In this document: positions 28,054-29,282 of the stretch, piece after piece | Layout: each line of letters begins with the position of its first letter | How positions within the stretch are numbered: position 1 is the first letter of the stretch | Program-made: the position numbers and the translations under genes | Virus record (IMG/VR): IMGVR_UViG_2718218168_000007 | Span: 1 to 40,384 of that record | Origin: a virus | Lineage: Duplodnaviria > Heunggongvirae > Uroviricota > Caudoviricetes | Reading direction: 5' to 3' (one strand) | DNA: 40,384 bases | The notes under the pieces: generated by a model | What the model was told of the DNA's origin: nothing | Seen by the model: the letters and a program-made list of their open reading frames with translations, nothing else | Database searches by the model: none

Positions 28054-28240
28054 GCTTCACCTCCGCAGAGGTCAAACGCTAGATGCAAAGAATTGCAGGT
28101 GCATTTCTGCATCTGTGAAGGGAGAAGAGAGTTTGGATTGTATGTGCGCATAAACGTCCCCGTTTAGCGCAGAAGTCACCGGAGTTGTTCAGGCTCCGAT
28201 GACATGATTATGGCGGGTTGATTATGGAAAATCAATCAAG

Positions 28241-28750
28241 CTATGTTTCATCGGCGAGGTCATCATCTGTGACAATCATGAGGTTAAAGAATGAAATAAT
28301 GTTTAACCACTGCGAGTAAATATCGCTCGTCATGCTGGTTAGCTCCTCTCCGTGAAAGAAGGCATCAGGCCCAACCTCATAGTTGAGCTCTTCAAAAAGC
28401 TCCATGTTTAATTGGCTAATAAAGAATTGCTTCAGACCTTTCATTGCATCCTGATTGTTGGTATCTGAGTAATTTATTATGCTCCCCATTGCCATGTTCA
28501 AACATCGAACAATATTGGCTGCGTCATGAAAGCTCCAGTCAGCCCCTTTCTTTCCTTTTGAGTATGAATTCGCTCTCTCAGCGCAAGCTTTTAATGTCTC
28601 GTACAAATACTGCTTTCCTTGCAACTGCAAAGCTTTTTCGGATGTGGCCCTGCTAGCTTCTGAGGATCGCCATGCTAAATAAGTTGCTACCGCAGATGCG
28701 ATAGCTGCAATCGCAGAAACTGCATCTATACCGTTATCCCAACCAGACAT
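28241..28750 (-). CDS. AT-rich nin-region moron protein with N-terminal TM helix, unknown function
   Basis: 169-aa acidic product with N-terminal helix IDAVSAIAAIASAVATYLAW; visibly more AT-rich than the surrounding nin genes. Confidence 0.6.
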   Translation of the reverse strand: MSGWDNGIDAVSAIAAIASAVATYLAWRSSEASRATSEKALQLQGKQYLYETLKACAERANSYSKGKKGADWSFHDAANIVRCLNMAMGSIINYSDTNNQDAMKGLKQFFISQLNMELFEELNYEVGPDAFFHGEELTSMTSDIYSQWLNIISFFNLMIVTDDDLADET

Positions 28751-28776
28751 AAAAACCCCCTCGATTATTTGAGGGG
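28751..28776 (-). terminator. Intrinsic terminator upstream of the nin moron
   Basis: On the minus strand: CCCCTC, 8-nt loop, GAGGGG(G), then TTTTT, followed immediately by the moron ATG. Confidence 0.6.
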
Positions 28777-28799
28777 ATTATACCTTCAAAGTTTCCGCG

Positions 28800-29282
28800 C
28801 TACCCATTCATAACTAAAGCTTTTGCTTTCCAATGAGAAAGCGCGCTATGTTCGCTAGAACCTGTTTCGACTATATGGCGCCCCCAGGAATCTCCCCATG
28901 CCCTCCACGTTGACTTGCCGGTTTGGACTACTGTGACAAGCGTGACTTCGCTCGGGTGTTTCCTGTGTGACCACAGCCAGGCTACGGTTTCGGCATTGGC
29001 TGGCTCTGGCGGGGCGGAGTAAAAATACTCATCCTCAATCCCATCAACGGGCTTTGAGAAGCCGATAAAATCACCATAATGCCAAGGATAGGGGCCGTAT
29101 GGCTCAGAGGTCACACGACGCCACCGGTGAATGGCAGGCTCCGCTTCGAGCGATGCCAGCGCGATACGCAGTGCCGCCAGCGTGTTGCTGTCGCCTTCGT
29201 CCAGACCGAACGGGATTTCATCTCTGGCTGCTTCCATGTCGGCAATTTTCTGCTGCAGCCATTGTTTGGTAATAGTGCTCAT
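28800..29282 (-). CDS. Hypothetical phage protein
   Basis: 160-aa ORF with typical prophage coding composition in a run of stop/start-overlapping early genes; no family recognised. Confidence 0.5.
   Translation of the reverse strand: MSTITKQWLQQKIADMEAARDEIPFGLDEGDSNTLAALRIALASLEAEPAIHRWRRVTSEPYGPYPWHYGDFIGFSKPVDGIEDEYFYSAPPEPANAETVAWLWSHRKHPSEVTLVTVVQTGKSTWRAWGDSWGRHIVETGSSEHSALSHWKAKALVMNG

What the first reader, a model, noticed from the sequence alone, without database searches (positions are those of the whole stretch)
28054..28800. nin-region AT-rich gene with N-terminal TM helix whose SD lies in the upstream terminator hairpin
A 169-aa acidic protein with one N-terminal transmembrane helix is encoded in a visibly AT-rich island between the ybcN-like gene and the upstream early genes. 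Its ATG follows immediately after an intrinsic terminator (CCCCTC...GAGGGG plus TTTTT), so the only SD-like sequence (GAGGGGG) is the 3' arm of the hairpin. That implies either tight translational control by the hairpin or an internal promoter. The nin region is a known moron and defence site; function is unknown.
Basis: partly seen in the sequence, partly recalled or inferred. Interest (0 to 1): 0.45.

Follow-up and report, generated by a model that had tools for sequence, protein, structure and literature searches.

The report
Optional phage gene behind nin terminator
This is a real but uncharacterised optional gene of lambda-like prophages, encoding a small acidic protein with an N-terminal hydrophobic (probable membrane-anchor) helix, and the hairpin in front of it is a widely shared phage terminator that supplies its own ribosome-binding site, not a control device made for this gene.

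Summary
On the minus strand, 28750-28241 encodes a 169-aa acidic protein (pI 4.45) with a conserved N-terminal hydrophobic helix. The gene has 43% GC against 50-54% in its flanks. Directly upstream lies a hairpin of about -14 kcal/mol followed by UUUUU and the AUG, and the 3' arm of the hairpin (GAGGGGG) is the only Shine-Dalgarno sequence.

The gene is real: dN/dS is 0.10-0.23 and it matches PHROG 1779 full length. The family is small and was recovered only from lambda-like prophages of enterobacteria. This version occurs in 25 of 5426 complete E. coli genomes, and a 47%-identical paralogue occurs in 181. No Pfam, NCBIfam, PADLOC, PDB or fold relative was found.

The hairpin is not specific to this gene. 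The cassette TATAAT-CCCCTC-loop-GAGGGG-Tn-ATG precedes at least 7 unrelated gene families. It always lies between the replication genes and the nin/Q genes, and phage HK639 annotates it as a terminator. It is a positional analogue of lambda tR2.

The slot upstream of the ylcH-ybcN leader is a cargo hot spot that elsewhere holds HEPN, NACHT, RloB/AbiL and NADAR genes.

An internal promoter is possible, because the TATAAT is invariant, but it has no -35 or extended -10 support.

The protein's function is inferred only: a membrane-tethered accessory protein, possibly for exclusion or abortive infection. This is an ordinary kind of feature of modest interest.

The parts
28241..28750 (-). CDS of 169 aa, PHROG 1779 family. 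N-terminal hydrophobic helix at residues ~8-27, then an acidic all-alpha domain ending in DDDLADET.
   Evidence: ORF list. phrog_1779 match, E 2.5e-77, full length. dN/dS 0.10-0.23 against homologues. AF2 model all-alpha, with core pLDDT about 80. Hydropathy and charge asymmetry.
28754..28779 (-). Terminator-type hairpin. 5' arm AAUCCCCUC at 28779-28771, loop at 28770-28763, 3' arm GAGGGGGUU at 28762-28754. The U-run is at 28755-28751.
   Evidence: Terminator scan. Folds at -14.2 kcal/mol, z -3.65. The same element is annotated 'terminator' in phage HK639. It is retained with changed stems and loops in homologous loci.
28756..28762 (-). Shine-Dalgarno-like GAGGGGG, identical with the 3' arm of the hairpin. 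The AUG is at 28750-28748.
   Evidence: Read directly from the sequence.
28777..28782 (-). TATAAT hexamer abutting the stem. It is -10-like and its role is unresolved.
   Evidence: Invariant TATA(A/C)T in 15 distinct upstream variants. No -35 or TGn support. Absent from 142 generic CCCCTC/GAGGGG terminators of other viruses.
28800..29282 (-). Upstream ORF of 160 aa, belonging to the variable ead/Ea22-like block. Its stop codon ends 17 nt before TATAAT.
28152..28240 (-). Conserved leader of ylcH-ybcN, not part of the cargo gene. It has a promoter-like TTGATT-17-CATAAT (28235-28207) and a 27-nt inverted repeat (28202-28176).
   Evidence: Promoter scan. The phage 82 record X92588 annotates a putative -35/-10 and a 'possible regulator-binding site'. 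Present in 2823 of 5426 E. coli genomes. Homology with phages that lack the cargo begins within a few bases of the cargo gene's stop codon.
28050..28151 (-). ylcH / orf33, a 33-aa ORF overlapping the start of ybcN.
   Evidence: RefSeq and phage 82 annotations. tblastn match.
27598..28053 (-). ybcN (NinB/Orf-like), the first gene of the conserved nin block ybcN-ninE-ybcO-rusA-ylcG-Q.
   Evidence: NCBIfam PRK09741, E 6.5e-83. PHROG 72 NinB/Orf. Annotation.

Best explanation
The locus is an optional cargo gene of lambda-like prophages. It sits as the first gene behind the phage's tR2-type intrinsic terminator, in a gene-swap hot spot. That hot spot lies between the replication/ea22-like genes and the conserved ylcH-ybcN-ninE-ybcO-rusA-Q block.

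The hairpin, U-run, SD and ATG form one portable cassette of about 35 bp, used in front of many unrelated 'first nin genes'. The SD-in-stem arrangement is therefore a property of the cassette, not a regulator evolved for this gene.

Inferred expression: the gene is transcribed mainly as a delayed-early gene, when early-right transcription reads through the terminator. Translation is damped because the SD, and in this phage also the AUG, are paired. A -10-only promoter (TATAAT) could add low lysogenic expression.

Inferred protein: the N-terminal helix anchors it in the inner membrane with the N-terminus outside. The acidic all-alpha domain, which has no detectable relatives, faces the cytoplasm.

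Weakest step: the protein most likely acts in phage-phage or phage-host conflict at the membrane, for example in superinfection exclusion or abortive infection.
For: Real gene: dN/dS is 0.10-0.23. It matches PHROG 1779 full length. There are 29 clusters at 90% identity and only 36 representatives among 1.84 billion proteins, nearly all single-domain proteins of 150-185 aa.

Optional cargo:
- Present in 25 of 5426 E. coli genomes, against 2823 that carry the adjacent leader.
- A 47%-identical paralogue occurs in 181 genomes.
- In the 84 protein-retrieved loci, wherever flanking genes were recognisable the gene lies between P/ren and ybcN/ninE/rusA/Q on the same strand; several loci had no recognisable neighbours.
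- A distant subfamily sits in the pL arm, co-oriented with early transcription.

Cassette:
- At least 136 instances lie in front of 7 unrelated ORF families.
- Where the flanks could be read (about 100 of 115 sampled loci), replication genes lie upstream and/or nin/Q genes downstream on the same strand, apart from 3 loci where a NinC- or YbcN-like match lies upstream; none is in the opposite orientation.
- HK639 annotates it as a terminator.
- Lambda tR2 occupies the same position.
- It is the only strong early-strand terminator between the replication genes and Q in the window.

Hot spot: there are 42 distinct upstream segments among 93 leader-containing loci. Cargo includes HEPN, NACHT, RloB/AbiLii, NADAR and HEC-07-like genes. 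HepS of Gifsy-1 is a published defence gene in what that paper describes as the usual accessory-gene region after the replication genes of lambdoid prophages (PMC13043305).

Topology: the N-terminal hydrophobic segment is conserved and positive charges cluster on its C side. P0056 adds three more hydrophobic segments upstream of it.
Against: - No transcript, termination or protein data exist for this locus.
- The membrane helix is alanine-rich and marginal on a Hessa-type scale.
- The AF2 N-terminus has pLDDT below 50.
- No homology links the protein to any defence, exclusion or anti-defence family, so the functional class rests on context only.
- No N-like antiterminator gene was found in the window, so how read-through is achieved in this phage is unknown.
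- The strict conservation of TATAAT is not explained by a pure terminator role.
Confidence: 0.55

Rival explanations
1. The gene is an autonomous moron expressed in the lysogen. TATAAT (28782-28777) is a working -10, so transcription starts about 7 nt downstream, at the first loop bases. These mRNAs lack the 5' arm, so they neither terminate nor mask the SD. Transcripts arriving from upstream are terminated or kept untranslatable. The cassette would then be a combined insulator and promoter.
For: TATA(A/C)T is the most conserved block of the element and stays intact where the T-run decays. An RNA starting in the loop leaves the SD unpaired, folding at only -2.3 kcal/mol. 0 of 142 generic terminators with the same stem have TATAAT upstream. 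The gene is AT-rich and patchily distributed. HepS, a defence gene in what its paper describes as the usual accessory-gene region after the replication genes of lambdoid prophages, is reported as constitutively expressed (PMC13043305).
Against: The best -35 match averages 2.6 of 6, against 2.1-2.2 at control spacings, and never reaches 5. TGn occurs in 1 of 74 contexts. The promoter scan does not call it. No terminator lies between the gene and Q, so a strong constitutive promoter would drive Q. In the variants with a decayed T-run, the 3' flank becomes complementary to UAUAAU, which suggests an RNA-pairing role.
Confidence: 0.25
2. The hairpin is a regulator dedicated to this gene. It acts as a translational switch or attenuator, opened by a factor, by temperature, or by upstream translation, to control production of a potentially toxic protein.
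For: Both the SD and the AUG are paired in the read-through RNA. In 28 of 57 distinct contexts the upstream ORF stops 2-5 nt before TATAAT, so a terminating ribosome could melt the 5' arm.
Against: The same cassette serves at least 7 unrelated genes. Seven of 15 family variants have a separate SD after the T-run. In this window the upstream stop codon is 17 nt from TATAAT, too far for ribosome melting. There is no Rfam match.
Confidence: 0.08
3. The protein is an early lytic-cycle effector rather than a defence. It would be a host-takeover or anti-defence factor, made only after induction or infection.
For: The gene is co-oriented and tightly packed in the early operons in both the pR (nin) and pL arms. 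In the pL-arm subfamily it is coupled to a small upstream ORF with no promoter in view. The protein is small and acidic with an acidic tail. A terminator lies upstream.
Against: The conserved membrane anchor is unusual for known anti-defence proteins (own knowledge). The slot's other cargo is defence-like rather than anti-defence-like. There is no homology to any known inhibitor.
Confidence: 0.2
4. The ORF is spurious or a decaying remnant.
For: None beyond the absence of any annotation.
Against: dN/dS is 0.10-0.23 out to saturated dS. Full-length conservation extends across Escherichia, Enterobacter, Citrobacter, Kluyvera, Phytobacter, Serratia and Scandinavium.
Confidence: 0.01

Closest known systems
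Lambda tR2 and the annotated nin-region terminator of phage HK639 (HM208537, 41560-41586)
   Same: An intrinsic terminator placed after ren and the variable ORFs, immediately before the first nin gene on the early-right strand. The HK639 element is the same sequence family: TATAATCCCCTC-loop-GAGGGGGTTTT-ATG.
   Different: Lambda tR2 shares no sequence with it and has a separate SD after the T-run. The cassette here places the SD in the 3' arm and carries an invariant TATAAT.
Morons of lambdoid phages, as defined for HK97/HK022 (own knowledge: Juhala et al. 2000)
   Same: An extra gene present in some but not other closely related phages, with deviant base composition, inserted exactly between two conserved units.
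   Different: There is no downstream terminator. Its own promoter is unproven, being a -10 only. The terminator lies upstream of the gene.
Single-gene prophage defences in the post-replication accessory region, e.g. HepS of Gifsy-1 (PMC13043305)
   Same: A stand-alone accessory gene after the replication genes of a lambdoid prophage, the region PMC13043305 describes as a common site of accessory genes, with no partner gene. HEPN-domain cargo occurs in the very same slot in sister phages.
   Different: There is no HEPN or other recognisable domain, no PADLOC hit, and no phenotype data.
Membrane-anchored superinfection-exclusion proteins, e.g. HK97 gp15, P22 SieA, T4 Imm (own knowledge)
   Same: A small phage-encoded protein with an N-terminal hydrophobic anchor, non-essential and variably present.
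   Different: No sequence or fold similarity was detected. Expression in the lysogen and any exclusion activity are untested.
PHROG 1779 (unknown function)
   Same: Full-length match, E 2.5e-77.
   Different: The family carries no functional information.

Membership tests
PHROG 1779 | Full-length profile match | tested here: met
   E 2.5e-77, residues 3-167 against profile positions 2-169 of 169.
Rho-independent (intrinsic) terminator | G+C-rich stem-loop directly followed by a U-run | tested here: met
   9 pairs including 5 G-C, an 8-nt loop and UUUUU. Free energy -14.2 kcal/mol, z -3.65.
Rho-independent (intrinsic) terminator | Actually stops RNA polymerase | not testable with these tools
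   The only support is the 'terminator' annotation of the same element in HK639. The basis of that annotation is unknown.
Lambda tR2-type nin terminator (positional class) | Lies on the early-right strand between the replication/ren genes and the first nin gene, upstream of Q | tested here: met
   In about 100 of 115 sampled loci with recognisable flanks, P/ren lie upstream and/or nin/Q downstream on the same strand; 3 loci have a NinC- or YbcN-like match upstream of the element; no instance is in opposite orientation. The window layout agrees.
Lambda tR2-type nin terminator (positional class) | Sequence homology to lambda tR2 | tested here: not met
   Lambda tR2 reads AGGCCTGC..GCAGGCCTTTTTATTT, which is unrelated.
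Moron | Present or absent among otherwise collinear phages, with deviant composition | tested here: met
   25 genomes against 2823 carrying the leader. GC 43% against 50-54%.
Moron | Own sigma-70 promoter | tested here: inconclusive
   A perfect and conserved TATAAT, but no -35 or TGn and no call from the scan.
Moron | Own downstream terminator | tested here: not met
   The stop codon is 5 nt from the leader -35, and there is no terminator before Q. The distant pL-arm subfamily does have one.
Known anti-phage defence systems (PADLOC 2.0) | Match to any system protein model | tested here: not met
   0 families at E up to 1.
Single-pass inner-membrane protein | Hydrophobic segment of about 19 residues with asymmetric flanking charge | tested here: inconclusive
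   Kyte-Doolittle 1.74 here and a family median of 1.91. K+R counts are 0.35 on the N flank against 3.2 on the C flank. However, the crude Hessa sum is +1.4 kcal/mol, no dedicated predictor was available, and AF2 pLDDT is below 50 for residues 1-35.
Superinfection-exclusion proteins (Sie, Imm, gp15 type) | Homology, or a demonstrated block of incoming phage | tested here: not met
   There is no sequence or fold relative. Activity cannot be tested here.

The most novel reading that the evidence does not exclude
The 169-aa protein founds a new single-gene, membrane-anchored anti-phage determinant (superinfection exclusion or abortive infection) with an unrecognised all-alpha fold. It would be expressed at low level in the lysogen from the -10-only promoter embedded in the terminator cassette.
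Probability: 0.2. Interest if true: 0.5.

Novelty: new member of a known kind. Interest (0 to 1): 0.3.

Why it matters
If the protein proves to be a defence or exclusion factor, it would add one more small stand-alone system to the catalogue. It would also mark the slot upstream of the ylcH-ybcN leader as a practical place to mine lambda-like prophages. The leader is present in about half of complete E. coli genomes, and its cargo in sister phages already includes HEPN, NACHT, AbiL-like and NADAR genes.

The shared terminator-SD-ATG cassette with its invariant TATAAT is a tidy example of a reusable gene-boundary module. It may explain how first-position nin cargo is swapped. It also raises a testable question: can one 35-bp element both stop upstream transcripts and start translatable ones?

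None of this is surprising for lambdoid phage biology.

Tried and rejected
**Protein homology and structure**
- Pfam, NCBIfam and PADLOC scans of the protein found nothing.
- Profile and single-sequence searches of PDB sequences found nothing meaningful.
- Foldseek against BFVD gave no hit at E up to 0.001.
- The AFDB library was unavailable.
- An hhalign comparison with the similarly built 181-aa cargo of L095 showed no relation, probability 0.8%.

**RNA and promoter**
- An Rfam scan of 27500-29400 at E up to 1 found no match.
- A -35 and extended -10 enrichment test for the TATAAT found no support.
- A formal covariation count on the hairpin was dropped. The stems of the subgroups align out of register in A3, so each variant was folded separately instead.

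**Other lines**
- A search for a conserved partner gene next to family members found none. A theta-like gene is a frequent neighbour but not an obligatory one.
- A search for model strains with TSS data that carry the gene or the cassette found none among the hits.
- Literature searches for the protein accession, the PhiR26_1 accession and the HK639 terminators found nothing relevant.
- A search for an N-like antiterminator ORF beside the repressor gene found none.

Full report
**What is in the window**

The region is the early-right arm of a lambda-like prophage, read on the minus strand. The gene order is:
- P (31104-30403) and ren (30406-30113)
- four small variable ORFs
- orf160 (29282-28800)
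- the ORF in question (28750-28241)
- an 89-bp gap
- ylcH (28151-28050), ybcN (28053-27598), then ninE, ybcO, rusA, ylcG and Q (26652-25963)

The finding's interval therefore holds two units. One is the 169-aa gene. The other is 187 bp of the conserved ylcH-ybcN leader.

**Checking the observation**

- The protein is acidic. Its pI is 4.45, with 23 D+E against 12 K+R.
- Residues 8-26 are its most hydrophobic 19-mer, with a Kyte-Doolittle mean of 1.74. The segment is alanine-rich, and a crude Hessa-scale sum is slightly unfavourable (+1.4 kcal/mol). On this protein alone the membrane helix is marginal.
- Across 51 family members the most hydrophobic segment is always N-terminal. The median score is 1.91 and 44 of 51 reach 1.6 or more. 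The N-side flank carries 0.35 Lys+Arg on average and the C-side flank 3.2. That fits an N-out, C-in anchor.
- One distant member, P0056, has three further hydrophobic segments in front of this helix.
- The gene has 43.1% GC and 46% GC3. Its neighbours have 50-54% GC and 56-60% GC3. The AT island is real but modest.
- Upstream, the minus strand reads TATAAT-CCCCTC-AAATAATC-GAGGGG-GTTTTT-ATG.
- The hairpin (28779-28754) folds at -14.2 kcal/mol. No shuffle out of 200 folds as well, and the scan calls it terminator-like.
- GAGGGGG is the only SD-like sequence and forms the 3' arm. In a longer transcript the AUG pairs as well.

**Is it a gene?**

Yes.
- It matches PHROG 1779 over its full length, E 2.5e-77.
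- It has full-length homologues in Escherichia, Enterobacter, Citrobacter, Kluyvera, Phytobacter, Serratia and Scandinavium.
- dN/dS against homologues is 0.10-0.23.
- The family is small. There are 29 clusters at 90% identity. An exhaustive profile search found 36 representatives among 1.84 billion proteins, and nearly all full-length ones are single-domain proteins of about 150-185 aa.

**What kind of gene?**

It is optional cargo.
- The gene's DNA occurs in 25 of 5426 complete E. coli genomes. The adjacent leader occurs in 2823.
- A 47%-identical paralogue occurs in 181 genomes, including O104:H4.
- Among deposited phages only PhiR26_1 and PhiR5_1 encode a relative, and it sits in the same slot.
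- In the 84 loci retrieved through the protein, wherever recognisable flanking genes were present the gene lies between P/ren and the ybcN/ninE/ybcO/rusA/Q block, on the same strand; several loci had no recognisable neighbours.
- No partner gene is conserved next to it.
- A distant subfamily, beginning MSWHHGDY, sits in the pL arm between the recombination genes and int. It is again co-oriented with early transcription and has a canonical terminator after its stop codon.

**The slot**

Homology between the window and phages that lack the gene starts within a few bases of the gene's stop codon.

I sampled 93 IMG/VR loci that carry the leader. They have 42 different sequences immediately upstream of it. 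The cargo includes:
- an esterase
- a YbcM-like regulator
- a lipoprotein
- a HEPN protein
- a NACHT ATPase
- an RloB/AbiLii-like protein
- a NADAR protein
- a HEC-07-like protein

Annotated phages show the same variability.

[quoted passage not shown] The paper reports that hepS is constitutively expressed (PMC13043305).

**The hairpin**

It is not specific to this gene.
- In the fetched loci it gave 136 instances in front of seven unrelated ORF families. These include a DNA polymerase III theta-like protein (RefSeq name), a 60-aa basic protein and a 164-aa protein.
- In six of the seven families the ATG follows the T-run directly, so the 3' arm is again the SD.
- Where the flanks are long enough, replication genes lie upstream and nin/Q genes downstream on the same strand. 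Three loci show a NinC- or YbcN-like match upstream of the element. No instance is in the opposite orientation.
- In phage HK639 the same element is annotated 'terminator', between the ren/eae-like ORFs and theta-NinB-NinE-Rus-Q.
- Lambda has an unrelated terminator, tR2, at the same position.
- In the window this hairpin is the only strong early-strand terminator between the replication genes and Q.

Within the protein family, 15 distinct upstream variants all keep a stable hairpin, with different loops and partly different stems (-7 to -19.5 kcal/mol). Seven of them carry a separate GGAG after the T-run. An SD inside the stem is thus a feature of the cassette in its short form. It is not a conserved regulator of this protein.

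**The TATAAT**

- TATA(A/C)T is the most conserved block of the element.
- None of 142 generic CCCCTC/GAGGGG terminators from other viruses has it. They carry A-tracts instead.
- A transcript starting about 7 nt downstream would lack the 5' arm and leave the SD free, folding at only -2.3 kcal/mol.
- Against it, 74 independent upstream contexts show no -35 enrichment. The mean best match is 2.6 of 6, against 2.1-2.2 at control spacings, and it never reaches 5. A TGn motif appears once.
- No terminator separates the gene from Q.
- Where the T-run has decayed, the 3' flank has become complementary to UAUAAU.

I leave this unresolved and give a working promoter about one chance in four.

In 28 of 57 contexts the upstream ORF stops 2-5 nt before TATAAT, so a terminating ribosome could open the stem. 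In this window the gap is 17 nt.

**The protein**

- AF2 with the family alignment gives an all-alpha model. Mean pLDDT is 68.6, the core is about 80, and the N-terminal 35 residues are below 50.
- Pfam, NCBIfam, PADLOC and PDB sequence searches are all empty.
- Conserved positions include an (E/Q)RAN motif, a W-x-F-x-D-A-A-N-I stretch and a D-(E/D)-D-L-x-D tail. None points to a known catalytic site.

**Best reading**

Shown by the data:
- The gene is real and under selection.
- It is optional and phage-borne.
- It sits first behind a shared terminator-SD-ATG cassette, in a cargo hot spot.
- It has a conserved N-terminal hydrophobic helix with asymmetric flanking charge.

Inferred:
- Expression comes mainly from read-through early transcripts, with translation damped by the stem.
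- The protein is anchored in the inner membrane with a cytoplasmic acidic domain.

Speculative:
- The protein has a role in exclusion or abortive infection at the membrane.

The main rivals are a lysogen-expressed moron using the TATAAT, and an early host-takeover or anti-defence factor. I did not find an N-like antiterminator gene in the window. How read-through is achieved in this phage is open.

**Verdict**

The feature is an ordinary kind of thing: an uncharacterised accessory gene in a known variable region, behind a known type of terminator. Interest is modest.

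Noticed in passing
window 33910-34859 (+): A Panacea-domain protein (RefSeq name in the identical SF-468 prophage) is followed by an overlapping 127-aa ORF with C-terminal hydrophobic segments. The pair lies next to the repressor gene and looks like a PanA-type antitoxin/toxin pair.
   Followed up: no
window 28152-28240 (-): The ylcH-ybcN leader has a promoter-like TTGATT-17-CATAAT and a 27-nt inverted repeat, TCATCGGAG..CTCCGGTGA. The phage 82 record annotates them as a putative promoter and a regulator site. 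The leader is present in 2823 of 5426 complete E. coli genomes.
   Followed up: partly
window 28777-28782 (-) and 74 contexts in fetched loci: An invariant TATAAT abuts the nin terminator stem, with no -35 or extended -10. Where the T-run decays, the 3' flank becomes complementary to it. The role is unexplained.
   Followed up: partly
window 28800-29282 (-): orf160 is a shortened form of a 268-aa ORF found in SF-468 and in IMG/VR relatives. The N-terminal 116 aa and the C-terminal 46 aa match, and the middle is missing.
   Followed up: partly
L040 4001-4486 and 4825-5307: Two diverged paralogues of the family (28% identity) lie in one prophage, separated by a DNA polymerase III theta-like gene.
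   Followed up: no
L444 6001-6560: A distant subfamily (MSWHHGDY...) lies in the pL arm between the exo/recT-side genes and int. A 32-aa ORF ends just before its start codon, and a canonical terminator follows its stop codon.
   Followed up: partly
L002 and L050-L084 (PhiR26_1-like loci), about 2646-2723 and 4580-4678: A partial second copy of ylcH lies upstream of a module made of Rha plus a family homologue. The module is therefore bracketed by leader-derived repeats, which hints at recombination at the leader.
   Followed up: no
L095 and L183, ORF ending 60 nt before the leader pattern: An unrelated 181-aa protein with N- and C-terminal hydrophobic helices occupies the same slot. It is analogous in build but is not a relative (hhalign probability 0.8%).
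   Followed up: partly
window 32989-35650 (+): No N-like antiterminator ORF is visible beside the repressor gene, and the immunity region is YdaS/YdaT-like. The phage's antitermination mechanism is unidentified.
   Followed up: partly
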